A stretch of DNA of 36,757 nt from Candidatus Liptonbacteria bacterium (GTDB lineage: Bacteria; Patescibacteriota; Minisyncoccia; UBA6257; 2-01-FULL-56-20). Shown one piece after another: positions 1,606 to 25,227 of the stretch. The stretch is from the NCBI GenBank assembly GCA_043801735.1, contig JAZDLT010000020.1:1-36757 (forward strand), given 5' to 3'. Under the pieces are notes generated by a model, which worked only from the letters and a program-made list of their open reading frames with translations, did no database searches and was not told the DNA's origin. The translations under genes and the position numbers were made by a program. The first letter of the stretch is position 1; every line of letters starts with the position of its first letter.

Positions 1606-1614
1606 TTATCCACA
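1606..1614 (+). promoter_or_regulatory. Perfect DnaA-box 9-mer TTATCCACA upstream of the rpoBC promoter
   Basis: Exact match to the consensus TTATCCACA, 18 nt upstream of the predicted -35. Confidence 0.45.
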
Positions 1615-1868: not shown

Positions 1869-4800
1869 ATGAAATCTCATCCGTTGCCCATAAAAAACTT
1901 TGGTAAGCATCTCCCCCTTATAGCCCAGCCCAATTTAAACGAGATCCAAATCCGCTCTTACAATGTTTTTCTTAAAGAGGGTTTGCAGGAAATACTAAAA
2001 GAGGTCTCGCCCATTTGGGACCACACCGGCAAGGAGTTAGCGCTTTATTTTGACGGATACTATTTCGGAGAGGCCAAGTACGACGAGAAAACCACCCGTT
2101 ACAAGGATGCGACCTACGAAGCTCCGCTTTACTTGAAGATAAGATTGGAAAATAAGCGCACGGGCAAAAGTCATTCCCAGGAGGTCTATTTCGGGGATTT
2201 CCCGAAGATGACCGACCGCGGAACTTTCATAATCAACGGCGTGGAGCGCGTGGTGGTTTCCCAGCTCATCCGTTCCGCTGGCGTTTACTTCACCGCGGTA
2301 CCCTGGAGGGAAAAAATGCTTTTCGGGGCGAAGGTTATCCCGAATCGCGGCGCCTGGCTGGAGTTCGAGACCGACATTGATGGAACCATTGGAGTGAAAA
2401 TAGACCGACACCGCAAGGTGCCCGTCACCGACCTCCTGCGTGTTTTCGGGGCGAGCGACGAACAAATTCGGGATATGTTCCAGGGAGTGGACGCCGGCGG
2501 TATTTCCTATATCGAAACTACCCTCAATAAAGATATCGCCCGAAACGTGGAGGAGTCCTATCTTGAAATATACCGCCGCCTCCGCCCTGGCGACCCGGCT
2601 ACCGCTCAAACCGCCAAGAATATGGTGGACTCCGTTTTCCACCGCGCCGACCGCTACGACATATCTCCGGTGGGGCGTTTCAAACTAAATCAGCGTTTAG
2701 ATCTAAATCCCAAAAAGGAGAGCGCCCTACTTGACCTAGAGGACTTGAAGGCGATTATTAAAGAAATAATCCGTCTCGACAACACTCCGGACGCGGAAGC
2801 GGACGATATTGACCACCTGGGCAACCGTCGTCTCAAGGCGGTGGGGGAGCTGATGCAAGGCCGTTTGCGCATCGGTTTCGCGCGCTTGCGGCGCATTATT
2901 CAGGATCGTATGTCCACTTTGGACAAGGACAGCATGTTGCCCGCGCAACTGATCAATTTTCGCCCAATTACCGCGGTGATCAAAGAATTTTTCTCCTCTT
3001 CTCAGCTTTCCCAGTTTATGGATCAAATAAATCCCCTGGCGGAGCTGGAGCATAAACGCCGTTTGTCCGCTCTTGGCCCGGGCGGCCTCACTCGCGAGCG
3101 AGCCAGCTTCGAAGTGCGGGACGTGCACCGCTCCCATTATGGCCGCATCTGTCCCATTGAAACGCCAGAGGGTTCCAACATCGGCCTTATCAACTATCTG
3201 GCCAGCTTTGCCCGCATGAACGACTTCGGGTTTTTGGAAACCCCCTATATGAGGGTAAAAAACGGTCGGGTGACGGATGAAGTGGTTTGGTTGGACGCCC
3301 TTTCGGAGGAGAAATACAAAATCGTGCATGCGACCGTTAGCCGAGACGAGAAGTGTAAAATCTTGGACAAGATGGTAGACGTAAGATACGGAATCAATCC
3401 CACCACTTGCCCGCCAGACGAAGTGGACTTTATGGATGTTGCCCCCAATCAATTCATATCCGTAGCGACCTCCCTTGTTCCATTTTTACAACACGACGAT
3501 GCCAACCGTGCCCTAATGGGTTCTAATATGCAGCGTCAGGCGGTGGCCCTAGTGAAACCAGTTGCGCCCTATGTCGGTACCGGTCAGGAAGAAAGAGCCG
3601 CGGAGGACTCCGGCTACTTGGTCCGGGCGGAGGCAAACGGAGAAGTGATAGAGGCAGACGCTTCTCATATTAAGGTTAGGTATGCCAACGAAACCAAAGT
3701 TTACCACCTCGAAAAATTCAAACGCTCCAATCAATTTACCTGTATCTCTCAACGGCCGGCGGTAGTGGCAGGGGATAAGGTTAAAAAAGGAAACCTCCTG
3801 GCGGACGGACCCTCGACCCAGAATGGAGTGCTCGCACTTGGCCAGAACTTGCTCGTGGCTTTTATCTCTTGGGAGGGAGCCAACTTTGAAGATGCGATTG
3901 TTCTTTCGGAACGGGTAGTAAGAGATGACTTTTTCACTTCCATTCATGTAGAGGAATTTTATTGCGACGTGCGGGACACCAAGCTTGGACCGGAGATAAC
4001 CACACCCGACATTCCGAACGTATCCGAGGAAAAGCTGCGCAACTTGAACGAAGAGGGCATTATTCGCATCGGCGCGGAAGTAAAGGCGGGCGATATTTTG
4101 GTCGGCAAGATCTCGCCTAAGGGCGAAGTGGAGCTGACCCCGGAAGAGCGCTTATTGCGAGCGATCTTTGGTGAAAAAGCGCGGGATGTTAAGGATACTT
4201 CGCTTACTTTGCCGCACGGTAAACATGGACGTATCGTGGGCGTGAAAGTTTTCAGCCGTGAACAGGGCGACAAGCTGGAAGCGGGCGTAATAAAGCGCAT
4301 TCAGGTGGAAGTCGCGGACGTGCGCAAAATCCAGGCGGGCGACAAATTGGCCGGCCGGCACGGCAATAAGGGCGTTATTTCTCAGGTTCGTCCTGTGGAA
4401 GACATGCCCTATCTGGAAGATGGCACGCCGGTGGATGTGGTGCTGAACCCGCTGGGCGTGGCTTCCCGTATGAACCTGGGTCAGATTTTGGAGACCCACC
4501 TGGGCTGGGCGGCCAAGACCCTGGGTTACCGCGCGGTTACTCCCGGATTGGATTCCGCCAAAGAAGCAGACATCCGCGCGGAATTGAAGCAGGCCGGGTT
4601 GCCGGAAGACGGCAAGATTAAACTCTACGACGGCCGCACTGGAGTGCCTTTCGATAAACCGGTCACGGTCGGGTATAAATACATACTCAAATTAAACCAC
4701 CTGGTGGAGGACAAGGTGCATATGCGCTCCATCGGTCCTTACTCGCTCATTACCCAGCAACCCCTGGGCGGCAAGGCGCAGTTCGGCGGCCAACGCTTCG

Positions 4801-7800
4801 GGGAAATGGAGGTCTGGGCGCTGGAGGGTTACGGCGCGCGCGCGACCTTGCAGGAAATGCTGACCATCAAGTCCGATGATGTGTTGGGTCGTTCTTCCGC
4901 CTACGAATCGATTATTCGGGGCGAGCCGATTAAGGGCCCCAATATCCCCGCCTCTTTCAATGTTCTGGTGAACGAGCTCAAGGCATTGAGTCTTAATATT
5001 GAGCCCGTATATGATTCGCCCGCCGATCGCAAAGACGACTTTAAGGCGCTACGCATCAGCGTGGCTTCCCCAGACGATATCTTGAAATGGTCTCACGGGG
5101 AGATTCTGAAGCCGGAGACCATCAACTATCGTACCCAACGACCGGAAAAAGACGGGCTATTTTCGGAGCGTATCTTTGGGCCGACCAAGGACTATGAATG
5201 CACCTGCGGCAAATATCGCCGCATCCGTTATAAGGGCGTGATTTGCGACAAATGTGGCGTGGAAGTCACGCGCGCGGTGGTGCGGCGGGAGCGCCTGGGT
5301 CATATTGCCCTAGCCGCGCCGGTCAGCCATATATGGTTTTTCAAAAGTGTTCCGTCCCGTTTGAGCTTGCTTTTAGATGTTTCTTCTGTTCGATTGGAGC
5401 GTGTTATTTATTACGTGGACTACATTGTAACCGTAGTGGACGAAGAGCACCGCAAGGAGGTTCTGGAGGATCTGGATCGGGAATTAAGGGGTAAGCTGAA
5501 AACGGTGGACGAAAAAGACCGTAAGGTGAAAACCGAACTAAACTCGGAAGCCAACCAGTCGCGGGCGACTTTGGAGGCCATGCGTCCCGGTCAGGTTCTG
5601 TCGGAAAACGAATATCTTTCCTTGAGTCGGCGTTTTGGCAGCGTGTTTAAGGCGGGTACCGGCGCGGAGGCGGTGCGGGAGATTTTGGAAAAGATGGATT
5701 TGCGCAAAGAGGTCCACAAGATCGAGAAAGAACTAGAACATTCCAAGGATAAAGAAACGGTCGGGGAAACCAAAATTTTGCGGCGCCTGAAAATGCTGCG
5801 TTCCATGATTAAAAACGGCACGCGCCCGGAGTGGTTGATAATGACCGTTCTACCGGTCTTGCCCCCGGATCTGCGCCCGATGGTAGCCCTCGACGGCGGA
5901 CGCTATGCCACCTCCGATTTGAATGACCTCTATCGCCGGGTTATCAACCGTAACAACCGCCTCAAGAAACTTCTGGAAATAAAAGCGCCGGAAGTCATCG
6001 TTAAAAACGAGAAGCGCATGCTGCAGGAGGCGGTAGACGCCCTGATTGATAATTCCGCCCGCTTCGGCACCCAACAACTTTCCGCCCGGCGCCGCCCACT
6101 CCGTTCTTTGGCGGATATGTTGAAGGGTAAGCAAGGCAGGTTTCGTCAAAACTTACTCGGTAAGCGCGTGGACTATTCCGGCCGCTCCGTCATCGTGGTC
6201 GGGCCCAAGCTTAGTATTGATGAGTGCGGTTTACCCAAGAAAATGGCGCTGGAACTCTTCCGCCCGTTCGTTATTAGTGAAATAATCAAACGCGAATTAG
6301 CGCACAACATCCGCAATGCGAATCGTCTCATAGAACAAGCCACGGATGAAATATGGGCAATCCTGGAAGAGATCACCAAAAATTATCGCGTCCTTTTGAA
6401 TCGTGCTCCGACCCTGCATCGCTTGTCCATCCAGGCCTTCAAGCCGATTTTGGTGGAAGGTCTGGCCATTCAGGTTCCGCCCTTGGTCTGCGCCGCTTTC
6501 AATGCGGACTTTGATGGCGACCAGATGGCAGTGCACATACCGCTTTCGGAGGAGGCCCAACGGGAAGCCAGGGAAATTATGGATGCCGGCCGCAACCTAC
6601 TGAAGCCCGCCACGGGCGAACTAATCACCGCGCCCACCCAGGATTTCGTTTTGGGCACATATTATCTTACTCAAATGTATCCGGAGACCAAGGGCGCGGG
6701 CCGAGCCTTTACCTGCATCAAAGAGGCCCTAATGGCTTACCACTACGAGGCGCTCTCGCTCCATGCCCCAATTCGGGTGGGTGAACATAAAGAGACCACC
6801 CTCGGCCGTCTTATCTTTAACGAAGTTCTAGGGGATACGTTGGAATACGTGAACGAGACCTTGAATAAAAAGAAGTTGGCGCGCTTAATAGAAAGGATAA
6901 TTGTTTCGGCGGGATTGGAAAAAGCCCGGGACATACTCCAGCGGGCAAAGCTTCTGGGTTTTGACATGGCCACCCGGAGCGGCATCACTTGGGCAATGGC
7001 CGATCTTATTATTCCAGCCGCCAAGGCGGGAATTGTGCGCAAGGCGGAAGAAGAAGTGAGCGTTATCCGGGAGCAGTACGATCAGGGTTTCTTGACGGAA
7101 GCCGAACGGCGGGCACGGGTAATTAGCATTTGGGAAAAAGTAAAAAGCGACATCGCCAAACAGGTAACCGGATCCTTGCCCGCGGACAACTCTATTTACC
7201 AAATTATTGATTCCGGTTCGCGCGGTTCTTGGTCTCAGCCGATTCAAATGATGGGCATGAAGGGTTTAGTGGCAAATCCCCGGGGAGAAGTAATCGAATT
7301 ACCTATCAAGTCGTCCTTCAAGGAAGGACTATCTGTGTTGGAATACTTCATCTCTACTCACGGCGCGCGCAAAGGCACGACCGACACCGCTCTTAAAACC
7401 GCCCAGGCCGGATATCTAACCCGCCGTCTGGTAGACGTTTCTCAAGACCTGACTATCAAGGAAGAGGATTGCAGGAGTAAGGACGGTATGGAAATCCTAC
7501 GCAATGACAGTAAAAATCTGGGACAATCTTTTAGTTCTAGAGTGTTTTCACGTACCGCTCTGGAAGATATCCGGGTAGAACGTAAAATTGTCGTCCGCGC
7601 GGGAGAGGCAATAGACCGAGCTACGGCGGATACCATAGACAAATCCGGCCTGGAGAGCGTTAAAGTCCGCTCGCCTTTGAACTGCAAAACCCTTTATGGT
7701 CTTTGCCAAAAGTGCTACGGTTTCGATCTGGGCGACAACAAACCCGTTAAAATCGGTTCCGCGGTCGGGGTGGTGGCTGCCCAATCCATTGGTGAACCGG

Positions 7801-8675
7801 GCACCCAGCTTACCATGCGCACTTTCCATGTGGGAGGCGTGGCTGGAGCGGACATCACTCACGGTTTACCGCGCGTGGAAGAGTTGTTTGAGGTTCGTCC
7901 GCCCAAGGGACGCGCGATCTTGGCGGGCGCGGACGGCCGTATAGAAAAAATAGAAGAAAGGGGCAACTTTAAAATAATCACCCTGACCGTTTCCGGGGAA
8001 AAGGTCCGTGCCAAGGGTAGGCGCACCAAGGACAAAAAAGCCCTGGAATACTCTATTCCCCGCTCCGCGATGATCTACGTGAAAACAGGCGACACGGTCA
8101 AGTTGGGTCAGCAGATAACGGAGGGCAACCTGGATTTGCGCGAACTTTTGGAGTATCGCGGCAGCGCGGAGGTTATCAGCTATATTATCGGTGAGGTCCA
8201 GAAAATATATAGCGCGGAGGGTGCCTCCATCAATAATAAGCATATCGAAATAATTGCCCGCCAAATGTTCTCTCGGGTAAGGGTGAAAGAAACGGGTGAC
8301 GCAGTCGATTTAGTGATGGGCGAAGTTCTGGAACGCTCCCGGTTTCTAGAAATAAATCGTGAGCTGAAGCATCAGGGTAAGCGCCTGGCTAAGGCCCAGC
8401 AACTACTTTTGGGGATCACTCGGGTGGCGCTTTCCACGGAATCCTTTCTTTCCGCCGCCTCCTTCCAAGATACCGCCCGGGTATTGGTTAAGGCCGCCAT
8501 CGAGAGCAGAACGGATTCCTTGCGCGGTCTCAAAGAGAACGTGATTATTGGACGCCTCATCCCGGCCGGGGACACCAGTCGTTCCGGTTTGAGCCCGGAA
8601 ACAAAGGGCGAAGCGCTTATTTCCGAAGCGGTTTCTCCCTCGGAAGAGGGAGAGGAAGAGGCGGTTTCGGAATAA
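1869..8675 (+). CDS. rpoBC: DNA-directed RNA polymerase beta-beta' fusion protein (rpoB and rpoC in one 2268-aa ORF)
   Basis: The N-terminal part (about 1040 aa) carries beta hallmarks (GDFPKMTDRGTFIINGVERVVVSQL, NLGQILETHLGWAA, GEMEVWALEGYGA). The remainder carries beta' hallmarks: Zn finger CTCGKYRRIRYKGVICDKCGVEV, catalytic NADFDGDQMAVH, and GGQRFGEME upstream. The junction ...NIEPVYDSPADRKDDFKALRISVASP... at about nt 5007-5042 has no stop and no in-frame ATG. Confidence 0.95.
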   Translation: MKSHPLPIKNFGKHLPLIAQPNLNEIQIRSYNVFLKEGLQEILKEVSPIWDHTGKELALYFDGYYFGEAKYDEKTTRYKDATYEAPLYLKIRLENKRTGKSHSQEVYFGDFPKMTDRGTFIINGVERVVVSQLIRSAGVYFTAVPWREKMLFGAKVIPNRGAWLEFETDIDGTIGVKIDRHRKVPVTDLLRVFGASDEQIRDMFQGVDAGGISYIETTLNKDIARNVEESYLEIYRRLRPGDPATAQTAKNMVDSVFHRADRYDISPVGRFKLNQRLDLNPKKESALLDLEDLKAIIKEIIRLDNTPDAEADDIDHLGNRRLKAVGELMQGRLRIGFARLRRIIQDRMSTLDKDSMLPAQLINFRPITAVIKEFFSSSQLSQFMDQINPLAELEHKRRLSALGPGGLTRERASFEVRDVHRSHYGRICPIETPEGSNIGLINYLASFARMNDFGFLETPYMRVKNGRVTDEVVWLDALSEEKYKIVHATVSRDEKCKILDKMVDVRYGINPTTCPPDEVDFMDVAPNQFISVATSLVPFLQHDDANRALMGSNMQRQAVALVKPVAPYVGTGQEERAAEDSGYLVRAEANGEVIEADASHIKVRYANETKVYHLEKFKRSNQFTCISQRPAVVAGDKVKKGNLLADGPSTQNGVLALGQNLLVAFISWEGANFEDAIVLSERVVRDDFFTSIHVEEFYCDVRDTKLGPEITTPDIPNVSEEKLRNLNEEGIIRIGAEVKAGDILVGKISPKGEVELTPEERLLRAIFGEKARDVKDTSLTLPHGKHGRIVGVKVFSREQGDKLEAGVIKRIQVEVADVRKIQAGDKLAGRHGNKGVISQVRPVEDMPYLEDGTPVDVVLNPLGVASRMNLGQILETHLGWAAKTLGYRAVTPGLDSAKEADIRAELKQAGLPEDGKIKLYDGRTGVPFDKPVTVGYKYILKLNHLVEDKVHMRSIGPYSLITQQPLGGKAQFGGQRFGEMEVWALEGYGARATLQEMLTIKSDDVLGRSSAYESIIRGEPIKGPNIPASFNVLVNELKALSLNIEPVYDSPADRKDDFKALRISVASPDDILKWSHGEILKPETINYRTQRPEKDGLFSERIFGPTKDYECTCGKYRRIRYKGVICDKCGVEVTRAVVRRERLGHIALAAPVSHIWFFKSVPSRLSLLLDVSSVRLERVIYYVDYIVTVVDEEHRKEVLEDLDRELRGKLKTVDEKDRKVKTELNSEANQSRATLEAMRPGQVLSENEYLSLSRRFGSVFKAGTGAEAVREILEKMDLRKEVHKIEKELEHSKDKETVGETKILRRLKMLRSMIKNGTRPEWLIMTVLPVLPPDLRPMVALDGGRYATSDLNDLYRRVINRNNRLKKLLEIKAPEVIVKNEKRMLQEAVDALIDNSARFGTQQLSARRRPLRSLADMLKGKQGRFRQNLLGKRVDYSGRSVIVVGPKLSIDECGLPKKMALELFRPFVISEIIKRELAHNIRNANRLIEQATDEIWAILEEITKNYRVLLNRAPTLHRLSIQAFKPILVEGLAIQVPPLVCAAFNADFDGDQMAVHIPLSEEAQREAREIMDAGRNLLKPATGELITAPTQDFVLGTYYLTQMYPETKGAGRAFTCIKEALMAYHYEALSLHAPIRVGEHKETTLGRLIFNEVLGDTLEYVNETLNKKKLARLIERIIVSAGLEKARDILQRAKLLGFDMATRSGITWAMADLIIPAAKAGIVRKAEEEVSVIREQYDQGFLTEAERRARVISIWEKVKSDIAKQVTGSLPADNSIYQIIDSGSRGSWSQPIQMMGMKGLVANPRGEVIELPIKSSFKEGLSVLEYFISTHGARKGTTDTALKTAQAGYLTRRLVDVSQDLTIKEEDCRSKDGMEILRNDSKNLGQSFSSRVFSRTALEDIRVERKIVVRAGEAIDRATADTIDKSGLESVKVRSPLNCKTLYGLCQKCYGFDLGDNKPVKIGSAVGVVAAQSIGEPGTQLTMRTFHVGGVAGADITHGLPRVEELFEVRPPKGRAILAGADGRIEKIEERGNFKIITLTVSGEKVRAKGRRTKDKKALEYSIPRSAMIYVKTGDTVKLGQQITEGNLDLRELLEYRGSAEVISYIIGEVQKIYSAEGASINNKHIEIIARQMFSRVRVKETGDAVDLVMGEVLERSRFLEINRELKHQGKRLAKAQQLLLGITRVALSTESFLSAASFQDTARVLVKAAIESRTDSLRGLKENVIIGRLIPAGDTSRSGLSPETKGEALISEAVSPSEEGEEEAVSE

Positions 8676-10085: not shown

Positions 10086-10643
10086 ATGGCGACAGCGAAC
10101 GAGTCGCTTTTCCGGATTTTGTTCGGTCTTTCCCATCAGAATTTTCTTCTGGACGGCCTTTTTGTGTTTTTGGGACAATATCTGCCTTATTTTATGGTTT
10201 TACTGGCGCTCGGCTGGATATATTCTTTCGGGAGCAAGCGGGAGCGTTGGTTTGTATTTTTTGAACTTGCCCTCATTCTTATTTTGAGCAGAGGAATTAT
10301 CACGGAATCTTTTCAGTTTTTCTATAAGCACCTCCGCCCTATGGACGTGTTGGGCGTGGATGCCCTCCTTGCCGAAGGCGGTAACTCTTTTCCTTCCGGC
10401 CACGCTTCTTTTATGTTCGCGCTCTCGGGTGGACTTTTAATGTATTCTTGGCGTTGGGGGTTTACCTATTTGACCCTTTCTTTAGTGAACGGTATCGCGC
10501 GTATAGTCGCGGGGGTGCACTGGCCGCTGGATATTTTGGGCGGTATCGTGGTCGGCCTCTTGAGTGCGGCTTTAATACACTTTCTGCTTGGAAAACACTA
10601 TCCTTCGGAGAAACAAGCGGAGGAGCCGCCCGGAATCACGTAA
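10086..10643 (+). CDS. PAP2-family membrane phosphatase (undecaprenyl-diphosphatase/BcrC-like)
   Basis: PAP2 motifs KHLRP, PSGHAS and ARIVAGVHWPLD. Several transmembrane spans. Confidence 0.8.
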   Translation: MATANESLFRILFGLSHQNFLLDGLFVFLGQYLPYFMVLLALGWIYSFGSKRERWFVFFELALILILSRGIITESFQFFYKHLRPMDVLGVDALLAEGGNSFPSGHASFMFALSGGLLMYSWRWGFTYLTLSLVNGIARIVAGVHWPLDILGGIVVGLLSAALIHFLLGKHYPSEKQAEEPPGIT

Positions 10644-10646
10644 ATC

Positions 10647-10668
10647 AAAAACCCCGCAAGGGGTTTTT
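10647..10668 (+). terminator. Rho-independent terminator after the PAP2 gene
   Basis: AAAAACCCC-GCAA-GGGGTTTTT: perfect 9-bp stem with a T run. Confidence 0.8.
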
Positions 10669-10760
10669 GATAAGTATGGTTGGGCGGACTTTGCTATATG
10701 CTTAGAGTCGGGCACCCCGAAGATTGTTTTTTATCGAATCGCCCTTTGCGGGTTTGTGAC

Positions 10761-10769
10761 TGTGGATAA
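10761..10769 (-). promoter_or_regulatory. Perfect DnaA-box 9-mer (TGTGGATAA on the plus strand) upstream of the lexA-methylase promoter
   Basis: Exact reverse complement of TTATCCACA. It ends 9 nt upstream of the predicted -35. Confidence 0.45.
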
Positions 10770-10777
10770 CCAGCCCT

Positions 10778-10805
10778 TTTACACTTTCGATTTATTTTCT
10801 ATAAT
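10778..10805 (+). promoter_or_regulatory. Promoter of the LexA-methyltransferase gene, leaderless geometry
   Basis: TTTACA (10778-10783), 16-nt spacer, TATAAT (10800-10805). Only 6 nt separate the -10 from the ATG at 10812, and there is no Shine-Dalgarno sequence. Confidence 0.5.
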
Positions 10806-10811
10806 ATCGCT

Positions 10812-12242
10812 ATGATAACAAAAAGGCAAAAACAAACCCTGGATTTTATAACCGATTATCAGAAGCGGAGAGGATATGCCCCCTCTCTTGATGAGATACG
10901 CAAGAAATTAAAACTCTCATCTGTTTCAACGGCTCACTTTCATGTCTCTAAGCTGCGCGACTTGGGATTTTTATCAAAAGAGGAAAACAAACCGCGTTCG
11001 ATTGAGGCGTTTGGCCGTGAGACGATGGTACAAATTCCGCTTTTAGGAACTATCGCCGCTGGTCAACCGATAGAGGCGATACAGAACAAAGAAATGATAG
11101 CTGTTCCCAAAAGTAAAATTCCTTCTTCGACGGAGGTGTATGCCCTCCGCGTGGTTGGCAATAGCATGATTGATGAGAATATCAACGACGGAGATGTGGT
11201 TTTGGTGCGCCAACAAGAAACGGCCGAGAATGGGCAAAAAGTTGTGGCTCTTATTGATAACCACGAGGCAACCTTAAAAAAATTCTATAAAGAGAGAGGG
11301 CAGATCCGCCTACAACCTGCGAACAAAAGCATGGAACCAATTATTTTCAGAAACGGACGAGATGTTTCTATACAGGGAATAGTGCTTGATGTCATTCGCG
11401 AAGAAAGGGCTGCGGATATCCAGTTGCCAGAGCCCAGAGGGCAAGAAAAATATAAGGAACTGCCCGTTAATAAAATTATTTGTGGAGATGCGATAGAAGT
11501 AATGAAGAAATTTCCGCCAAATTCAGTTGATATTGTAGTTACCTCTCCACCTTATGATGCCGTTCGTGATTATAAGGGATTTTCCCTTGATTTACATTCG
11601 GCGGGAAAAGAAATATATCGTGTCCTCAAAGATGGTGGAGTAGCTGTTATGGTAATTCAAGATCAGACAAAAAACTTTGGTAAATCGTTAACTTCCTTCC
11701 GTACGATTACAGATTGGTGTGATAGTTTCGGATTCAAGCTTTTTGAGACGGTTATTTATCGCAAGTATGGCGCGGAGGGCGCATGGTGGAATAAACGTTT
11801 CCGCGTAGACCATGAATATATACCAATTTTTCTGAAAGGCGAGAGGCCGCAATATTTCAATAAAGAGCGTCTAAAAATTCCGTCTAAACATGGTGGAAAA
11901 ACAATGACGGGGGGCGGTACTCGGCTTACGAACGGCGTTCGAATAGCAACTCGCTCAATCAAAATAAACCCAATGAAGTGTAGGGGGACGATCTGGGAGT
12001 ATCTTACGGCGGGCGATGGAAGTCGCCTTAAGCACCAGCATCCCGCAACCTTCCCGAATCAGCTCCCGTATGATTTTATTGGTTGTTTTGCGCCAAAAAA
12101 CGGGATAGTGCTCGATCCTTTTGTCGGAAGTGGCACAACGACTGTCGCAGCAAAGAATCTTGGATACAAATATATTGGCATTGATATCGCACCCGAATAT
12201 TGCGAAATAGCAAGGAAAAGAATACAAGAGGAAACAAAATAG
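10812..12242 (+). CDS. LexA repressor (wHTH + S24 peptidase) fused to a beta-class N4/N6 DNA methyltransferase (SPPY, predicted m4C)
   Basis: aa 1-197 form a complete LexA: the wHTH RQKQTLDFITDYQKRRGYAPSLDEIRKKL, cleavage site IAAG (Ala83-Gly84), nucleophile GNSM (Ser118) and general base ATLKK (Lys156). aa ~216-476 form a PF01555-like methylase, with motif IV DIVVTSPPY (nt 11544-11555) preceding HPATFP and motif I LDPFVGSGTT. One ORF, with no stop in the linker of about 20 aa. Confidence 0.85.
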   Translation: MITKRQKQTLDFITDYQKRRGYAPSLDEIRKKLKLSSVSTAHFHVSKLRDLGFLSKEENKPRSIEAFGRETMVQIPLLGTIAAGQPIEAIQNKEMIAVPKSKIPSSTEVYALRVVGNSMIDENINDGDVVLVRQQETAENGQKVVALIDNHEATLKKFYKERGQIRLQPANKSMEPIIFRNGRDVSIQGIVLDVIREERAADIQLPEPRGQEKYKELPVNKIICGDAIEVMKKFPPNSVDIVVTSPPYDAVRDYKGFSLDLHSAGKEIYRVLKDGGVAVMVIQDQTKNFGKSLTSFRTITDWCDSFGFKLFETVIYRKYGAEGAWWNKRFRVDHEYIPIFLKGERPQYFNKERLKIPSKHGGKTMTGGGTRLTNGVRIATRSIKINPMKCRGTIWEYLTAGDGSRLKHQHPATFPNQLPYDFIGCFAPKNGIVLDPFVGSGTTTVAAKNLGYKYIGIDIAPEYCEIARKRIQEETK

Positions 12243-12252
12243 CCCAGAACGG
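12242..12252. repeat. Left copy of the 11-bp direct repeat GCCCAGAACGG
   Basis: Exact copy of 13231-13241. It starts at the last base of the methylase stop codon. Confidence 0.8.
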
Positions 12253-12261
12253 TAAATTAAT

Positions 12262-13200
12262 TTAGGATAATCTATCTGGTGTCTCTAGTGTGTATTGGAT
12301 TACGGCGCCCTCTGTCATTGCTAAAGAAAGGGGCTGCTTATTCCATATCTCTAAAAATTTCATATTACCTCGACTACCTCTGTTCTGGCCATAAATTTCC
12401 TTAGTAAACTTGTGTTGCTTTAAGTTCTCTAAATTCCAGTTTTCTGATTTAAGTTCCCATCCCGTGAGATCACTAATTAAAGATAGGGTTTCTGTTAAAA
12501 CACCCCCATTAAATTTAAAAAGGTCTATATGTCCATAATAAGTCGGATTGATGGACTTCAATTTAGCTATAAAAGAATCTATCTCTTGTATGAGATCTAT
12601 GACAGATATGTTCTTCAGCTTTACCCACCAATCTGCTTCTGCTCCATGGTGCAAATAATCGAACCAATCTAAAACGTTGCCAGTATACTTGAAAAGAATT
12701 TTCCATACGCCGTCCGCAAAAAATATAGGAGCCAATCCTTGTGTCCTTACAGAAATCTTTCCCGGAGAGTAATTCTCGAGAATGTACATTAAAAAATGAA
12801 TGGCACCAAGTGGGTATTTTCTTGCCAACGTACTTCTCTGTCTGTCAAACCCTCTTATGTAATTTGGATTTATGCAGTCAGACATTTTTTTGTGATAGTC
12901 AATCGGAGGGGTATTGAGCATGTGAATATTCATGTGGTGTCCTACGGAGCGTACCCCCTCCCGCAGAATCTCCATATCTAGAAAAATACACTTTCTAGCC
13001 GAAATGCCGGGCACGATTAACAAAGACTTCCCATCATAAAATCCTTTTATCTGCCAATTGAGATATTGGCTCATAAAAAGACCACACAATAAACCATCCA
13101 CGTCTGGACTTAATATGCAATTTTGTCCAGGATCTATTATCCAAGGATATTTTTTGAGTAGGACAGCATAATCAATTGTTAACGAGGAGGGATGTGACAT
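12262..13200 (-). CDS. Hypothetical 312-aa protein; candidate partner (nuclease/effector) of the LexA-methylase
   Basis: Clean ORF, and the most AT-rich gene in the window by my line-by-line counts (roughly mid-30s to low-40s % GC versus about 50-55% nearby). Convergent with the methylase, 19 nt apart. Weak ordered motifs reminiscent of DHH phosphoesterases (SPDVDG, FLDME, GHH). No family is recognised with confidence. Confidence 0.6.
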   Translation of the reverse strand: MSHPSSLTIDYAVLLKKYPWIIDPGQNCILSPDVDGLLCGLFMSQYLNWQIKGFYDGKSLLIVPGISARKCIFLDMEILREGVRSVGHHMNIHMLNTPPIDYHKKMSDCINPNYIRGFDRQRSTLARKYPLGAIHFLMYILENYSPGKISVRTQGLAPIFFADGVWKILFKYTGNVLDWFDYLHHGAEADWWVKLKNISVIDLIQEIDSFIAKLKSINPTYYGHIDLFKFNGGVLTETLSLISDLTGWELKSENWNLENLKQHKFTKEIYGQNRGSRGNMKFLEIWNKQPLSLAMTEGAVIQYTLETPDRLS

Positions 13201-13230
13201 TTATTGACTTAAATAGAATTTATTCATGGT

Positions 13231-13241
13231 GCCCAGAACGG
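13231..13241. repeat. Right copy of the 11-bp direct repeat GCCCAGAACGG
   Basis: Exact copy of 12242-12252. It lies in TGGTGCCCAGAACGGAACC, which loosely resembles the tRNA-Leu 3' end TGCCCAGGGCCGGAATCGAACC at 13437. Confidence 0.8.
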
Positions 13242-13400
13242 AACCTCCTCCTTCACTAAAGCTACGGATGGACTAGGAGCCGGTAGGTTTGTGCCGCGGG
13301 AGGGAGTCCCCTCCAGAGGCGGGCAAGGAACCCTCATGACCTTGCGATCGCGGGATTTTGCCTGTCCGCCAAAGCTTTGGCGTCGGCGGAAGTCCCGTGC

Positions 13401-13418
13401 GCCCGCCTGTCGGCGGGC
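13401..13418. repeat. GC-rich hairpin GCCCGCC-TGTC-GGCGGGC
   Basis: Perfect 7-bp stem, 19 nt downstream of the tRNA-Leu 3' end. Neighbouring palindromes are CGCCAAAGCTTTGGCG (13367-13382) and GGAGGG-AGTC-CCCTCC (13299-13314). Confidence 0.7.
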
Positions 13419-13436
13419 AGGTCTGCCAATAAAATG

Positions 13437-13518
13437 TGCCCAGGGCCGGAATCGAACCGGCATGGGTTTCCCCACACGATTTTGAGTCGTGCGCGTCTAC
13501 CAATTCCGCCACCCGGGC
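13437..13518 (-). tRNA. tRNA-Leu (anticodon CAA), CCA not encoded
   Basis: Cloverleaf folded by hand: acceptor GCCCGGG/CCTGGGC; D arm GCGGAATTGGTAGACGC; anticodon stem CACGA/TCGTG with loop CTCAAAA; long variable arm; T arm GCCGG-TTCGATT-CCGGC; discriminator A. Confidence 0.92.
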
Positions 13519-13591
13519 AGGGTGAGGTATCTTGCTAGTTTTCAACTGATTGTCCGTATCTTTCGATGCGCACGACTGTCGTGCACGCCTG

Positions 13592-13607
13592 CCTGCCGGT
13601 AGGCAGG
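13592..13607. repeat. GC-rich hairpin CCTGCC-GGTA-GGCAGG
   Basis: Perfect 6-bp stem. A related unit, CCTGCCTGCTGGTCGGCATGG, is inserted at 30817-30837. Confidence 0.7.
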
Positions 13608-13766
13608 TCTACCTCCAGCGTCCGGGCATATCAAGTTACCGTCCTATTTAACCCTTTTTTACCCCTGAGATCAAGGTCATTTCTTTGCGTTAGGGCCCAT
13701 TAATTTATACAATTACAGCAATGGTCAGCGTAATCTCTGGACCAGCTCGGGATAATCAATGAACTT

Positions 13767-14567
13767 ATGGCAAGAGTAATAGGCATCTGCAATCAGAAGG
13801 GGGGAGTGGGCAAGACCACCACCGCGGTCAACTTGGGCGCCTATGTCGCGCTGCAGGGTAGGCGCGTGCTTCTGGTGGATTTCGATCCACAAGCAAACGC
13901 AAGCTCCGCCCTGGGTCATGATCCGCGTTCGGACACCCCCAGTGTTTATCACGGCATTTTGGAACAGGGTGAGCCCTGGGAGCTGGTTCGCCCCTCCGCG
14001 CTTTATAACTTTCACTACATTCCCTCCGCGCCGCATCTCGCGGGCGCGTTGGTGGAGTTGGTAAATATTCCCAAAAGAGAAGGACTGTTGCGCCGTTTCC
14101 TGAATCATCTGCGCCATGGTTACGAATATATTTTTATAGATTTGCCGCCCAGCTTGAGTTTACTTACCGTAAACGGGCTTGTGGCAAGCGACGAGATTCT
14201 TATTCCCGTTCAGGCGGAATACTACAGCTTGGAAGGACTGGGACAGTTGCTCGAAACGGTGAATCTTATCCGTGCCAATCTCGGACACAACTTGGAAGTG
14301 GCGGGCGCGCTTCTTACCATGTATGACGGCAGGGAGCAGCTGAATCGGGAGGTTGCCCACGATCTTCGCGCTCATTTTCCATACCCGGTTTTCGAAACCG
14401 AGATTCCACGCAGCATTGCGTTGGCGGAGGCGCCCAGTTTCAACAAGCCGGTGGTTTTACATCGCCCGGATTCCGCCGGCGCGGAGGCATACCACCGCTT
14501 GGCGCTGGAAATTACCCGCCAGAAAAAACCTACAGGCGAGAAAGAGGCGGGCAACTTTAATGTATAA
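13767..14567 (+). CDS. parA: Chromosome partitioning ATPase ParA/Soj
   Basis: Deviant Walker A KGGVGKTTTAVNLG and the DFDPQ motif. Followed by parB with an 8-nt overlap. Confidence 0.93.
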   Translation: MARVIGICNQKGGVGKTTTAVNLGAYVALQGRRVLLVDFDPQANASSALGHDPRSDTPSVYHGILEQGEPWELVRPSALYNFHYIPSAPHLAGALVELVNIPKREGLLRRFLNHLRHGYEYIFIDLPPSLSLLTVNGLVASDEILIPVQAEYYSLEGLGQLLETVNLIRANLGHNLEVAGALLTMYDGREQLNREVAHDLRAHFPYPVFETEIPRSIALAEAPSFNKPVVLHRPDSAGAEAYHRLALEITRQKKPTGEKEAGNFNV

Positions 14568-17350: not shown

Positions 17351-17488
17351 GTCATCCTCCCGGTAATCCGTCATAAGTCGGACCTTGGAACGTCCCATAT
17401 ACCATGGGATAACGTATTTGCAGAGACCTTGGTTGTGCTATACTTTATCCATATAAAAGTCCCACTAAATCTAAAAAACCAATAGAAA

Positions 17489-22918: not shown

Positions 22919-22964
22919 TAGGGTGCTTGGGCGGGGGACTCTGCTGCGACCGAGGCGGAGGATT

Positions 22965-24059
22965 TCATTTTTTTGCGGAGTATCCCAGCGGGGTTTCGTT
23001 TATTCTATCAGTTAACACAAGCAAGGAAAGGGCCTGGCTCGTGGTTTGAACATCAAGCTTAACCAGTTCCGCGATCTTGTCAATTTCCAGCGATGACTTT
23101 GAAGACAAGAGCACCGTAAGGATGCTTACGGTCTCGCGCGAATCATCCGCGCGGATGGCGGACTTGTCTTCTTCGGGCAAGAGGTCCCAATCTTCCAAGA
23201 TTTGTTCCGGCTCTGTGACCAGTTCCGCCCCCGCGCGGATAAGCAGGTTAGACCCCTTGTAGTTGGGATGACGAACCGGGCCCGGCAGGACGAAAACGTC
23301 TCGGTTTTGCTCCATCGCAAAACGAGCGGTGGCGAGCGAGCCGGAACGCAAACCCGCCTCTACGATTAAAACGCCCCGGCTTAAACCGCTGACTATGCGG
23401 TTTCGCTCCAGAAAACGGTAAGGCAGAATGGGCATGCCGGGCGGATATTCGGAAATCAGAACCCCGCCCGTGTCCATGATTTTTCGGGCCAACGTTTCGT
23501 TGGTGCGGGGATAGATGCGGTCGAGTCCGCCCGGCATCACCGCCACGGTCCGGCCGTTCTCTGAAAAGCAACCTTCGTGCGCGGCCGCGTCAATGCCGAG
23601 CGCCAATCCGCTCACGACAACTAACCCCCGTGCGGCGAACTTGCCCGCAAATTGGCGCGCCAGGGCCTTGCCCTCGGGGGTGGCCTTGCGCGTTCCCACG
23701 ATGGCCACGATTTTATCCGGCTTATCCGAAGGCCCGAGGTTTCTTCCTAAAACATATAAGCCAAACGGAGAATGCGGAATTTCCCGCAACGAACTCGGGA
23801 AGTCGTCGTCCTCTCGAAGGATAAGTTTTATGTCCAGCGCGGAAAGCTCCCGGGATGCTTTCTCGGGACTGGTTCCTCTGCCTGCGCCACTCTGCCAGGC
23901 CTTTGCCCAGCTGCCGAACCTGTCTTTAATTTTACCAAGCGCGGCGTAGTCGGCTTGATGGCATATATTTAAAGCGTGATAAAAATCCGCCTCCTTTGGT
24001 TCCTTCATCTCGTTCAGTTTAGCACGTGGAGCGGGTCGACAAAATATGCTAGAATTCAC
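22965..24059 (-). CDS. dprA: DNA processing protein DprA/Smf
   Basis: Rossmann-like core VAIVGTRKATPEG...VVSGLALGIDAAAHEG...IVSGLSRGVLIVEA. Conserved dprA-topA pairing. An alternative start is ATG at 24008 (MKEPKEAD). Confidence 0.9.
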   Translation of the reverse strand: MNSSIFCRPAPRAKLNEMKEPKEADFYHALNICHQADYAALGKIKDRFGSWAKAWQSGAGRGTSPEKASRELSALDIKLILREDDDFPSSLREIPHSPFGLYVLGRNLGPSDKPDKIVAIVGTRKATPEGKALARQFAGKFAARGLVVVSGLALGIDAAAHEGCFSENGRTVAVMPGGLDRIYPRTNETLARKIMDTGGVLISEYPPGMPILPYRFLERNRIVSGLSRGVLIVEAGLRSGSLATARFAMEQNRDVFVLPGPVRHPNYKGSNLLIRAGAELVTEPEQILEDWDLLPEEDKSAIRADDSRETVSILTVLLSSKSSLEIDKIAELVKLDVQTTSQALSLLVLTDRINETPLGYSAKK

Positions 24060-24065
24060 CAGGAT

Positions 24066-24638: not shown

Positions 24639-24846
24639 AATTTATCAGAACTATCAGGAGGTATTCCTCGCGGCTTATGCCCTGATCATAATCGGAGCGA
24701 TAGTGTTCTTCTATGTGTCGGGCATATTCTCTTTGGTGAGGGTCGCTACGGAAGCGACCAGCATCAAGTCCGAATCCTCCACGGAGGTTGATTTTAAACT
24801 AGAGGAAGCCAAAGCGGTTCTGGAGCAGACAAAAATTTCGGAATAA
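24625..24846 (+). CDS. Small hypothetical membrane protein (73 aa)
   Basis: ATG at 24625 (MSLRRIYQNYQEVFLAAYALIIIGAIVFFYVSGIF) has one TM span. It overlaps the preceding gene by 14 nt, which suggests translational coupling. Confidence 0.45.
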   Translation: MSLRRIYQNYQEVFLAAYALIIIGAIVFFYVSGIFSLVRVATEATSIKSESSTEVDFKLEEAKAVLEQTKISE

Positions 24847-24947
24847 GAATAATTTGATTCTGCGCTTTATTTGATATACCCTTGGGCTCGGGGCAGGAAG
24901 ATATATTTGAAAACTGCAACAAAGAGAGGGTTTTTGAAGAAAATATT

Positions 24948-25019: not shown

Positions 25020-25103
25020 CAATGTTTGAAATATATTTAGAATTACCATATATTATTGCGGTTGGGCGCGTACGGCGGCTTGGGGTGCTCCGCGAATAAG
25101 TTT

Positions 25104-25178: not shown

Positions 25179-25227
25179 ACCTAACCCCGTGGTGCTTGGG
25201 CAAAATGGGGCTATAATTGGCCTATCC

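What the first reader, a model, noticed from the sequence alone, without database searches (positions are those of the whole stretch)
10812..12242. Complete, apparently autocleavable LexA fused in frame to a DNA methyltransferase
**Seen in sequence.** One uninterrupted 476-codon ORF joins two domains through a linker of about 20 aa.
- The first is a full LexA: wHTH, Ala83-Gly84 cleavage site in IAAGQP, Ser118 in GNSM, and Lys156 in ATLKK.
- The second is a beta-class methylase: motif IV TSPPY comes before motif I FVGSGTT.

**Established knowledge.** LexA self-cleaves on RecA* filaments and is the SOS master repressor. SPPY/F at motif IV is characteristic of N4-cytosine methylases, whereas D/NPPY marks m6A enzymes. 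Some R-M methylases carry small HTH autoregulatory domains.

**Inference.** I am not aware of a described fusion of a whole S24-peptidase LexA to a methylase. DNA damage would sever the DNA-binding domain from the dimerisation-plus-methylase part. That would couple SOS induction to methylase targeting or expression. The protein could be an SOS-gated epigenetic regulator or the control hub of a restriction/defence module.
Basis: partly seen in the sequence, partly recalled or inferred. Interest (0 to 1): 0.86.

Follow-up and report, generated by a model that had tools for sequence, protein, structure and literature searches.

The report
SOS-repressor-fused methylase of a mobile restriction cassette
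The gene really does encode a complete self-cleaving LexA repressor fused to a DNA methylase; it is the methylase of a small mobile restriction-modification cassette common in CPR bacteria, which suggests, so far untested, that these restriction systems are switched by DNA damage.

Summary
ORF 10812-12242 encodes LexA wHTH + S24 peptidase (A83-G84, S118, K156) + a beta-class SPPY methylase.

It is not an artefact or a one-off. More than 120 protein clusters and about 50 of the 80 best genome loci share the architecture, nearly all from CPR/Patescibacteria.

Context changes the reading. The methylase is paired almost everywhere with the convergent 312-aa gene 12262-13200, often preceded by a C-protein gene. 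That is a type II R-M cassette, horizontally mobile and low in GC.

An 11-bp-period direct repeat (10785-10802) overlaps the promoter. Its sequence co-varies with the wHTH recognition helix, so it is probably an autoregulatory operator. A DnaA-box-like site (10761-10769) marks the cassette edge.

The same box-operator-LexA module precedes other cargo:
- LexA is fused to three methylase classes.
- Closely related stand-alone lexA genes are followed by DpnI-like nuclease genes.

Best explanation: a cleavable autorepressor makes methylase expression damage-inducible. Cleavage, its outcome, and whether this is the cell's only LexA remain untested. I found no published description.

The parts
10761..10769 (+). 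DnaA-box-like 9-mer TGTGGATAA. It marks the left edge of the conserved cassette.
   Evidence: Similarity between eight orthologous loci from different CPR lineages begins abruptly at this box.
- Present within 160 nt upstream in 38 of 51 full fusions and 6 of 7 wHTH-only fusions, but in only 1 of 11 stand-alone methylases. Background is 0.016 per 160 nt.
- Also found upstream of stand-alone lexA genes of the same clade.
- Identity with the consensus DnaA box TTATCCACA is my own knowledge. DnaA binding was not tested.
10778..10805 (+). Sigma-70-type promoter, TTTACA-16 nt-TATAAT. The ATG lies 6 nt after the -10 box, so the mRNA is probably leaderless.
   Evidence: The promoter scan matches 11 of 12 positions. 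The element is conserved in close orthologues.
10785..10802 (+). Putative operator: a direct repeat with 11-bp period, TTTCGAT-tttat-TTTCTAT, overlapping the promoter spacer and the -10 box.
   Evidence: - An 11-bp-period direct repeat lies at the promoter in every full-fusion locus except L054.
- The half-site sequence co-varies with the wHTH recognition helix.
- The exact site is unique in the window.
10812..12242 (+). LexA-methyltransferase fusion gene, 476 aa.
10815..10997 (+). LexA winged-helix DNA-binding domain, residues 2-62. The recognition helix is SVSTAHFHVSKL.
   Evidence: Pfam PF01726 E 2.6e-13. Full-length alignment to T. maritima LexA 3k2z, E 4.9e-35.
11037..11384 (+). S24 peptidase and dimerisation domain, residues 76-191. 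Scissile bond A83-G84 at nt 11058-11063, S118 at nt 11163-11165, K156 at nt 11277-11279.
   Evidence: Pfam PF00717 E 1.1e-30. The residues are invariant in 20 of 20 aligned orthologues and are kept in all 51 full fusions read from loci.
11403..11465 (+). Variable linker, about residues 198-218.
   Evidence: This is the least conserved block of alignment A1.
11466..12239 (+). Beta-class N4/N6 DNA methyltransferase domain. Motif IV SPPY at nt 11544-11555 and motif I FxGxG at nt 12120-12134.
   Evidence: - Pfam PF01555 E 1.4e-39.
- PADLOC MTase_II E 3.2e-44.
- Closest solved structures: 2zie (4.8e-22), N4-cytosine methylases 8s9n and 1boo, and CcrM.
12262..13200 (-). NB312, the conserved convergent partner and candidate restriction endonuclease. 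It belongs to an uncharacterised family with a possibly DHH/RecJ-like fold.
   Evidence: - A homologue lies immediately downstream of the methylase in 78 of 83 fetched loci. It is convergent in all but L070 and L082, and this holds whatever the methylase's N-terminus.
- About 40 relatives have an XRE/HTH_3 ORF ending at or just upstream of its start codon.
- No Pfam, NCBIfam or PADLOC hit.
- AF2 model pLDDT 91. The top Foldseek hits in two libraries are weak but are all DHH-family proteins.
- Invariant motifs: SPDxDG, DxE, GHH.

Best explanation
Positions 10761-13200 are a small, horizontally mobile type II restriction-modification cassette. It encodes a beta-class, probably N4-cytosine, methyltransferase and a convergent partner gene (NB312) that is most likely the restriction nuclease.

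The methylase carries a complete LexA as its N-terminal regulatory module. The proposed mechanism has three steps:
1. **Resting state.** The fusion dimerises through its S24 domain. Its winged helix binds the 11-bp-period direct repeat that overlaps its own promoter, which holds methylase synthesis at a set level. This is the same logic as the known 'dual-function methylase repressors' M.SsoII, M.Ecl18kI and M.EcoRII.
2. **Damage.** RecA filaments on single-stranded DNA stimulate self-cleavage at A83-G84. The DNA-binding domain is cut off, and its new C-terminus ...IAA resembles the ClpX-recognised VAA end of cleaved E. coli LexA. The promoter is derepressed and an S24-methylase fragment is released.
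3. **Outcome.** The most likely outcome is a burst of methylase. It would protect DNA newly made by repair or recombination from the cassette's own nuclease. This would be a type II analogue of damage-induced restriction alleviation. There is no terminator between the convergent genes, so stronger methylase transcription may also run antisense into the nuclease gene.

A conserved DnaA-box-like site next to the operator suggests a second input linked to replication.

What is shown:
- the domains and catalytic residues;
- the conserved gene pairing;
- the promoter and operator position;
- the helix/operator covariation;
- the mobility of the cassette.

What is inferred:
- DNA binding;
- repression;
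- RecA-dependent cleavage;
- the direction of the physiological effect;
- nuclease activity of NB312;
- DnaA binding;
- m4C specificity.
For: **Domains.** Searches give the domain hits. The cleavage site, Ser-Lys dyad, SPPY and FxGxG motifs are invariant and are retained in all 51 full fusions.

**R-M context**
- An NB312 homologue lies next to the methylase in 78 of 83 fetched loci, convergent in all but two. This holds whether the methylase has a full LexA, a wHTH only, an excisionase-type HTH or no N-terminal domain.
- An HTH_3 C-protein gene precedes the NB312 homologue in about 40 loci.
- The methylase matches the PADLOC type II MTase model at 3.2e-44.

**Operator**
- An 11-bp-period direct repeat sits at the promoter in every full-fusion locus except L054, and in the window it overlaps the -10 box.
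- The recognition helix tracks the half-site: AHFH/AHYY with TTTC(T/G)AT, (I/V)HQH with TTTCGGT, HEH with TCGGG, and S/HQHV with GTTTAGG. The same code holds in wHTH-only fusions and in stand-alone lexA genes.
- No second operator copy was found in the window or in about 6-kb flanks of 44 loci.

**Mobility and cassette-borne LexA**
- Orthologues 85-93% identical occur in different CPR candidate phyla with unrelated flanks. Similarity starts exactly at the TGTGGATAAC box.
- Cassette GC is 0.35-0.45 against about 0.52 in the flanks.
- Identities of the LexA part and the methylase part are discordant between loci.
- Two LexA-methylase genes lie on one 6.3-kb contig, and the first is followed by an EcoRII-C nuclease.
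- LexA is fused to N6_N4, D12 and N6_Mtase/Eco57I/TaqI_C methylases.
- In all 7 sampled loci, closely related stand-alone lexA genes with the same promoter module are followed within 20 nt, or overlapped, by another gene. The downstream genes are DpnI-like in four loci, NmeDI_C in one, an unfused methylase in one, and an unknown ORF with a PD-(D/E)XK-like motif in one.

**Known precedent.** Fused repressor domains on methylases, and damage-induced restriction alleviation in type I systems, are described in PMC12707154, PMC3978073 and PMC2760811.
Against: - Nothing functional was tested: DNA binding, cleavage, methylation and nuclease activity are all untested.
- NB312 matches no known nuclease family, and its DHH-like affinity rests on weak Foldseek hits (E 0.01-0.08) plus motifs.
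- NB312 is only 31-40% identical between loci whose methylases are about 90% identical. That is unusual for a cognate pair with one specificity.
- The window's cassette lacks the C-protein gene found in many relatives.
- wHTH-only variants show that the S24 domain is not needed for the basic arrangement.
- I could not read whole genomes. I therefore cannot exclude that this is the cell's only LexA, with further operators elsewhere.
- The direction of the effect is a guess. More methylase would mean protection, whereas loss of methylase would mean self-restriction.
- The full-length AF2 model was unusable (pLDDT 57).
Confidence: 0.55

Rival explanations
1. The fusion is the organism's genuine, and perhaps only, LexA. 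It represses a genome-wide SOS regulon. The methylase and nuclease have attached themselves to lexA as passengers, so that losing the cassette would also mean losing SOS control, and their expression follows lexA autoregulation.
For: - The LexA part scores as a lexA equivalog, 183 bits against a cutoff of 111, and aligns over its full length with solved LexA structures.
- PGAP names it LexA.
- Every member of this LexA clade that I sampled is linked to restriction genes, so no 'clean' lexA of the clade was seen.
- CPR genomes are small, and a second lexA was not seen in the window.
Against: - Near-identical cassettes occur in different candidate phyla with unrelated flanks.
- Operator specificity diverges quickly and travels with the gene. 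That is hard to reconcile with a multi-gene regulon, which would have to co-evolve.
- Two LexA-methylase genes with different operators lie on one contig.
- The methylase-based genome scan gave only 293 matching stretches and 224 confirmed relatives among 185,579 species genomes. The distribution is therefore patchy.
- No extra operator was found in 36.7 kb of window or in the locus flanks.
Confidence: 0.2
2. The LexA part is only a DNA-binding and dimerisation autorepressor, as in SsoII. Self-cleavage is not used physiologically, and the system is not coupled to DNA damage.
For: - wHTH-only fusions and a fusion with an HTH_17 domain keep the same gene arrangement. The wHTH-only fusions also keep the same operator layout.
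- Fused repressor domains without any protease are the known norm (PMC12707154).
Against: - The Ala-Gly bond, the GxSM serine and the TLK lysine are kept in all 51 full fusions, while the linker and wHTH vary freely. This indicates selection on catalysis and not only on dimerisation.
- The same complete S24 domain is kept in fusions to three other methylase classes.
Confidence: 0.13
3. The fusion is a damage-triggered suicide or abortive-infection switch. Cleavage destabilises or mislocalises the methylase, the fragments are degraded as for E. coli LexA, the genome becomes under-methylated, and the stable nuclease kills the damaged or infected cell.
For: - Type II R-M systems act like toxin-antitoxin modules (PMC3874152).
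- Closely related lexA modules drive nucleases directly, for example DpnI-like genes, so in those cassettes damage would switch on a nuclease.
Against: - The ClpX-like tag would sit on the small N-terminal fragment, not on the methylase fragment.
- Derepression of the same promoter would make more methylase, not less.
- No data exist on fragment stability.
Confidence: 0.08
4. The fusion is an orphan, SOS-gated epigenetic regulator. The wHTH targets the methylase to particular loci, and damage releases it to methylate elsewhere. It has no restriction function.
For: - Stand-alone relatives of the methylase are common on viral contigs, where orphan methylases are typical.
- L001 has the fusion without NB312.
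Against: - The NB312 partner is conserved in nearly all cellular loci and is often preceded by a C-protein gene.
- The only operator found is in the gene's own promoter.
Confidence: 0.04

Closest known systems
Dual-function methyltransferase repressors of type II R-M systems: M.SsoII, M.Ecl18kI, M.EcoRII, M.MspI (PMC3978073, PMC2760811, PMC12707154)
   Same: An N-terminal DNA-binding domain is fused through a flexible linker to the methylase, and it binds an operator in the methylase's own promoter region to autoregulate the R-M system.
   Different: - Those domains are small HTH regions of about 70 aa on m5C methylases, with no protease and no known damage input.
- They often also control a divergent R promoter.
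- Here the module is a whole LexA (wHTH + S24 self-cleaving domain) on a beta-class SPPY methylase.
- The operator is a direct repeat.
- R is convergent, and no operator was found near it.
LexA / SOS repressor (TIGR00498; solved structures 3k2z, 1jhh, 3jso)
   Same: - It has the same two-domain fold signature, Ala-Gly scissile bond and Ser-Lys dyad.
- It has an operator in its own promoter.
- The direct-repeat layout, with some variants reading GTTC-N7-GTTC, matches the alphaproteobacterial LexA box (my own knowledge).
   Different: - It carries a 260-aa enzyme at its C-terminus.
- It is borne on a mobile cassette.
- Operator specificity varies between close relatives.
- No regulon beyond its own promoter was detected in the sequence available.
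C-protein-controlled type II R-M systems, e.g. PvuII (PMC2175313)
   Same: In about 40 related loci a small HTH_3 gene immediately precedes the nuclease gene, and in many it ends at or overlaps its start codon. This C-R unit is convergent with the methylase gene.
   Different: The window's copy has no C gene. The methylase side has an additional, independent LexA-type control.
Damage-induced restriction alleviation of type I systems (ClpXP proteolysis of EcoKI; PMC12707154, PMC11109961)
   Same: The proposed purpose is the same: to protect unmodified DNA that arises during repair or recombination from the cell's own restriction enzyme.
   Different: The mechanism would be transcriptional and autoproteolytic, acting on the methylase of a type II system. 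It would not be proteolysis of the restriction subunit.
Phage CI-type S24 repressors, and DNA-damage-responsive regulators of defence systems such as CapH/CapP of CBASS (my own knowledge)
   Same: A mobile element carries its own damage-sensitive repressor, with element-specific operators.
   Different: Here the repressor is covalently part of the enzyme it regulates.

Membership tests
LexA (TIGR00498 / COG1974) | N-terminal LexA-type winged helix-turn-helix | tested here: met
   PF01726 E 2.6e-13 over residues 2-62. TIGR00498 scores 183 bits against a cutoff of 111.
LexA (TIGR00498 / COG1974) | S24 domain with an Ala-Gly scissile bond and a Ser-Lys dyad | tested here: met
   PF00717 E 1.1e-30. 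A83-G84, S118 and K156 are invariant in 20 orthologues and are retained in all 51 full fusions.
LexA (TIGR00498 / COG1974) | Operator in its own promoter (autoregulation) | tested here: met
   A conserved 11-bp-period direct repeat overlaps the -10 box and co-varies with the recognition helix. Binding itself was not tested.
LexA (TIGR00498 / COG1974) | Controls a regulon of DNA-repair genes | tested here: inconclusive
   No further operator was found in the 36.7-kb window or in about 6-kb flanks of 44 loci. No SOS genes fell inside the flanks. Whole genomes could not be read.
LexA (TIGR00498 / COG1974) | RecA*-stimulated self-cleavage | not testable with these tools
   This needs biochemistry.
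Beta-class N4/N6 DNA methyltransferase (PF01555) | Motif IV (S/D)PP(Y/F) lies before motif I FxGxG, and the protein matches the family profile | tested here: met
   PF01555 E 1.4e-39. SPPY is at residues 245-248 and FVGSG at 437-441. PDB relatives: 2zie, 8s9n, 1boo, 6pbd.
Beta-class N4/N6 DNA methyltransferase (PF01555) | Base modified (m4C or m6A) and target sequence | not testable with these tools
   SPPY at motif IV points to m4C (established knowledge). However, the solved relatives include both m4C and m6A enzymes.
Type II restriction-modification system | The methylase is genetically linked to a cognate endonuclease | tested here: inconclusive
   Linkage is met: an NB312 homologue lies next to the methylase in 78 of 83 fetched loci, and many relatives have a C-protein gene. 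Nuclease identity is not shown: there is no family hit and only weak DHH-like fold matches.
Dual-function methylase repressor (SsoII / Ecl18kI type) | A DNA-binding domain is fused N-terminally to the methylase, with an operator at the methylase's own promoter | tested here: met
Dual-function methylase repressor (SsoII / Ecl18kI type) | The same operator also governs the adjacent R promoter in a divergent arrangement | tested here: not met
   R is convergent, and no operator copy lies near its start.
DHH phosphoesterase superfamily (for NB312) | Motifs DxD, D, DHH and D on a RecJ-like fold | tested here: inconclusive
   D33xD35, D75, G87-H88-H89 and D163 are invariant. The top Foldseek hits in both the PDB and viral libraries are DHH/RecJ proteins, but at E 0.01-0.08 and TM about 0.3. 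No member hits the Pfam DHH model.

The most novel reading that the evidence does not exclude
In CPR bacteria a portable sensing module has been recruited again and again as the front end of restriction systems. The module is a DnaA-box-like site, a fast-evolving direct-repeat operator and a self-cleaving LexA. It is fused to at least three classes of methylase, or placed directly upstream of DpnI-like and other nucleases. In many of these reduced genomes the cassette-borne LexAs may be the only LexAs. If so, what is annotated as the 'SOS repressor' would mainly be a damage- and replication-sensing switch for genome defence, not for DNA repair.
Probability: 0.25. Interest if true: 0.85.

Novelty: new variant of a known kind. 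Interest (0 to 1): 0.68.

Why it matters
Type II R-M systems are thought to be regulated by C proteins, by small repressor domains on the methylase, by antisense RNA or by promoter methylation. No DNA-damage input is described in the 2025 review checked here (PMC12707154).

A self-cleaving LexA built into the methylase would give these systems a direct, cassette-autonomous link to RecA activation. It would offer a mechanism for damage-induced restriction alleviation, or for suicide, outside type I systems.

The pattern is widespread in CPR bacteria, which largely lack CRISPR (my own knowledge) and so would depend heavily on R-M. It would therefore bear on how these organisms balance defence against self-damage.

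It also provides three further leads:
- a natural set of wHTH/operator pairs with a readable recognition code;
- a candidate new nuclease family (NB312);
- a caution that automatic 'LexA' annotations in CPR genomes may not denote an SOS master regulator.

Tried and rejected
**Rejected explanations**
- An assembly or frameshift artefact is rejected. More than 120 independent clusters and about 50 genome loci share the uninterrupted ORF.
- A viral origin for the fusion is not supported. The viral-contig scan gave 588 relatives, but the best 80 all match the methylase domain only, with no LexA part.

**Searches that found nothing**
- I scanned the window and 44 loci for a LexA regulon, looking for extra operator copies. 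Only weak chance-level matches were found, for example 17471-17488 with 2 mismatches, against an expectation of 1.45 by chance.
- Regex searches for RecA, UvrA, UvrB, RuvB, RecN, Y-family polymerase and Nrd motifs in the fetched loci found nothing.
- I looked for terminal direct or inverted repeats bounding the cassette. None was convincing.
- Placing NB312 by Pfam, NCBIfam, PADLOC and a PDB sequence profile gave no hit.

**Uninformative**
- The AlphaFold model of the whole fusion was too poor to use because the alignment is shallow (pLDDT 57).
- The Patescibacteria SOS paper (Sanchez-Osuna et al. 2017, PMID 28618189) is not held in the library, so I could not compare my operator with theirs.
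- I considered whether TGTGGATAAC is the methylase's target site or a recombination site. I could not test either. It is invariant while both the wHTH and the methylase vary, which argues for a conserved host factor such as DnaA.
- A more distant LexA (P0373) lies on contigs too short to be informative.
Full report
**1.

- The window has one uninterrupted 476-codon ORF at 10812-12242.
- Pfam finds LexA_DNA_bind (residues 2-62, 2.6e-13), Peptidase_S24 (76-191, 1.1e-30) and N6_N4_Mtase (239-468, 1.4e-39).
- NCBIfam's lexA equivalog model scores 183 bits against a cutoff of 111.
- The N-terminal 200 residues align end to end with solved LexA structures; the best is T. maritima 3k2z at 4.9e-35.
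- The C-terminal 260 residues align with beta-class methylases: 2zie at 4.8e-22, then the N4-cytosine enzymes 8s9n and 1boo, then CcrM.
All are invariant in 20 orthologues.
- The exact protein is deposited from a Candidatus Liptonbacteria MAG. More than 120 clusters at 75-93% identity share the architecture, so a frameshift or mis-join is excluded.

**2. It is the methylase of a restriction-modification cassette**

A scan of one genome per species found 224 genomes that encode a relative, and 80 loci were fetched. I mapped the window's four pieces onto all loci: wHTH, S24, methylase, and the convergent 312-aa neighbour 12262-13200, which I call NB312.

- An NB312 homologue lies immediately downstream of the methylase in 78 of 83 fetched loci, and it is convergent in all but two.
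- This holds whether the methylase carries a full LexA, only the wHTH, an excisionase-type HTH_17 domain, or no N-terminal domain.
- In five loci the S24 repressor is a separate 205-aa gene 24 nt upstream of the methylase.
- In about 40 loci an XRE/HTH_3 gene of about 75 aa immediately precedes the NB312 homologue. In many it ends at or overlaps the start codon. This is the classic C-protein-nuclease operon convergent with a methylase gene. The window's copy lacks this C gene.
- PADLOC scores the methylase as a type II MTase at 3.2e-44.

NB312 itself matches nothing in Pfam, NCBIfam, PADLOC or a PDB sequence profile. Its AlphaFold model is confident (pLDDT 91). In two independent structure libraries the top matches are all DHH-family proteins (RecJ, Cdc45/GAN, DHH phosphohydrolases), but only weakly, at E 0.01-0.08. 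The invariant motifs SPDxDG, DxE and GHH fit DHH motifs I-III. I treat 'DHH-like nuclease' as a lead and not as a result.

**3. The cassette is mobile**

- Orthologues 85-93% identical occur in MAGs assigned to different CPR candidate phyla: Lipton-, Levy-, Ryan-, Azam-, Wolfebacteria and Paceibacterota.
- When the upstream regions of eight of them are aligned, similarity begins abruptly at a TGTGGATAAC box and is absent further upstream.
- In the window, GC is 0.35-0.45 across 10600-13200 against about 0.52 on either side.
- The LexA part and the methylase part have discordant identities between loci. For example, LexA is 88-94% identical with the methylase at 68-70% in L015, L016 and L018, while the wHTH is about 52-55% with the methylase at 90-93% in L012-L014. 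The two halves therefore recombine.
- No flanking repeats were found.
- A tRNA-Leu gene lies 236 nt beyond NB312.

**4. A self-contained regulatory module**

- The gene has a near-consensus promoter, TTTACA-16-TATAAT at 10778-10805, matching 11 of 12 positions. The ATG lies 6 nt after the -10 box, so the mRNA is probably leaderless.
- The direct repeat TTTCGAT-tttat-TTTCTAT (10785-10802) overlaps the spacer and the -10 box.
- Every full-fusion locus except L054 has such a repeat, always with an 11-bp period.
- The half-site changes between lineages in step with the wHTH recognition helix:
  - STAH(F/Y/H)(H/Y) goes with TTTC(T/G)AT.
  - ST(I/V)HQH goes with TTTCGGT.
  - STxHEH goes with (T/C)TCGGG.
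  - PT(I/V)(S/H)QHV goes with GTTTAGG.
- The same code holds in wHTH-only fusions and in stand-alone lexA genes.
- Several variants read GTTC-N7-GTTC. That is the layout of the alphaproteobacterial LexA box (my own knowledge).
- The exact repeat is unique in the window, and no further copy lies within about 6 kb in 44 loci, including upstream of NB312.
- This is what an autoregulatory operator looks like. Its rapid diversification resembles mobile-element repressors more than a phylum-wide global regulator.

**5. The DnaA-box-like site**

- TGTGGATAA (10761-10769) is the reverse complement of the consensus DnaA box TTATCCACA (my own knowledge).
- Within 160 nt upstream it is present in 38 of 51 full fusions and 6 of 7 wHTH-only fusions. 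Most of the remainder are one mismatch away. It is present in only 1 of 11 stand-alone methylases. Background is 0.016 per 160 nt.
- Its position and orientation vary, and it stays invariant while the wHTH, the operator and the methylase all change. This argues for a conserved host factor.
- Binding was not tested.

**6. The fusion is one case of a wider pattern**

- A search of 1.84 billion representative proteins returned many proteins of 500-890 aa with a full LexA at the N-terminus.
- Ten of them were scanned. All have LexA_DNA_bind + Peptidase_S24 followed by N6_N4_Mtase (four different subfamilies), MethyltransfD12, or N6_Mtase/Eco57I/TaqI_C.
- Contig L054 (6.3 kb) carries two LexA-methylase genes. 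The first has its own direct-repeat operator and is followed by an EcoRII-C-type nuclease.
- The closest stand-alone LexA proteins (209-220 aa, 60-70% identical to one another, and about 69% to the fusion's LexA part for the query P0271) form a large CPR clade.
- In all seven contexts sampled, lexA carries the same box-repeat-promoter module and is followed within 6-20 nt, or overlapped, by another gene. All seven sit in different neighbourhoods. The downstream genes are:
  - a DpnI-like methylation-dependent nuclease in four loci (PF06044, 1.5e-77);
  - an NmeDI_C-type protein in one locus (a precomputed hit that my own scan did not reproduce);
  - an unfused N6_N4 methylase in one locus;
  - an unknown protein with a PD-(D/E)XK-like motif in one locus.
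- On viral contigs only the bare methylase domain was found.

**7. Mechanism**

The best-supported reading is as follows. The LexA part is a cassette-borne, self-cleaving autorepressor of the methylase gene. It extends the known class of 'dual-function methylase repressors' (M.SsoII, M.Ecl18kI, M.EcoRII; PMC3978073, PMC2760811, PMC12707154) by adding a RecA-sensitive switch.

All 51 full fusions keep the scissile bond and the Ser-Lys dyad, while the linker and wHTH drift. That argues catalysis is under selection.

Cleavage would remove the wHTH, whose new C-terminus ...IAA resembles the ClpX-recognised end of cleaved E. coli LexA (my own knowledge). It would derepress the promoter and release an S24-methylase fragment.

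I favour a protective outcome, in which more methylase is made while repair and recombination create unmodified sites. This would be analogous to the damage-induced restriction alleviation known for type I systems (PMC12707154). No terminator separates the convergent genes, so stronger methylase transcription could also interfere with nuclease expression.

The direction of the effect is an inference. The opposite outcome, loss of methylase followed by self-restriction, is possible.

**8. What remains open**

- I could not read whole genomes, so I cannot say whether the fusion is the organism's only LexA.
  - Against that idea: the mobility of the cassette, the patchy distribution, the operator diversity, and two copies on one contig.
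  - For it: no cargo-free lexA of this clade was seen.
- The paper on the Patescibacteria SOS network (PMID 28618189) is not held.
- Six literature searches and two R-M reviews gave no description of a LexA-methylase fusion.
- m4C specificity is suggested by SPPY at motif IV but is not shown.

**9. Verdict**

It is not a rarity, and it is not shown to be the SOS master repressor.

I rate it a new variant of known kinds (a fused methylase repressor combined with an S24 repressor). It is widespread in CPR bacteria and, as far as I could search, undescribed.

Noticed in passing
L166 5001-6412; L168 5001-6414; L170 4001-5426; L173 4001-5435: Stand-alone lexA genes (211-213 aa) of the same clade carry the same box, direct repeat and promoter. 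Each is followed 6-20 nt downstream by a DpnI-like methylation-dependent restriction endonuclease (PF06044 + PF17726) and then 2-3 small ORFs. The genomic neighbourhood is different in each locus. These LexA proteins end in a conserved tail, KLxWMK.
   Followed up: partly
L054 564-3204 and 4992-6317: Two LexA-methylase fusion genes lie on one 6.3-kb contig. The first (621 aa, permuted N6_N4 methylase) has the operator CTTTCGGTTTATTTTCGGG and is followed by an EcoRII-C-type nuclease. The second has no direct repeat upstream but has a palindrome, GGTGTCAtTGACACC.
   Followed up: partly
window 12262-13200 (-): NB312 belongs to an uncharacterised family of more than 300 clusters, also present in Methanobacterium and a Planctomycetes MAG. 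It has a confident AF2 model and DHH-like invariant motifs. If it is the nuclease, this would be a restriction enzyme fold not among the known ones (my own knowledge). It is only 31-40% identical between loci whose methylases are about 90% identical.
   Followed up: partly
window 13186-13199, and upstream of the start codon in L025, L030, L038, L045, L168, L170 and others: A short motif, (A)AGTCAA or TGTCAA, recurs 5-15 nt before the ATG of long-leader lexA-methylase and lexA genes. It also precedes the NB312 ATG in the window (ttaagtcaataaATG). No Shine-Dalgarno sequence is evident there. The meaning of the motif is unknown.
   Followed up: no
window 13200-13770: The spacer between NB312 and parA is GC-rich (0.58). 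It contains tRNA-Leu(CAA) at 13436-13518 (-) and several GC-rich hairpin repeats, such as GCCCGCCGACAGGCGGGC. A tRNA next to the cassette could be an insertion hotspot.
   Followed up: no
window 1606-1614 (-) and 25924-25932 (-): The only other exact TGTGGATAA sites in the window are both intergenic. A one-mismatch copy (TATGGATAA, 17445-17453) lies in the relA/spoT-to-1061-aa-ORF intergenic region, next to a weak operator-like repeat at 17471-17488.
   Followed up: partly
window 12220-12242: The window's protein ends at ...EETK. It lacks the roughly 8-residue C-terminal tail (...QNKLF/LL) present in nearly all orthologues.
   Followed up: no
window 20747-32082: The window also encodes topA, dprA and a type IV pilus / type II secretion cluster (pilB-like ATPase, pilC-like protein, pseudopilins). 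These are DNA-uptake-related genes about 8 kb or more downstream of the R-M cassette. It also encodes relA/spoT, parA-parB, ssb-rpsR and a 2268-aa ORF at 1869-8675.
   Followed up: no
   Followed up: no
L055 3737-4855 and L062 1395-2510: A second wHTH-methylase fusion, with a different methylase about 28% identical, lies just upstream of the main one. It has its own box and direct-repeat operator.
   Followed up: partly
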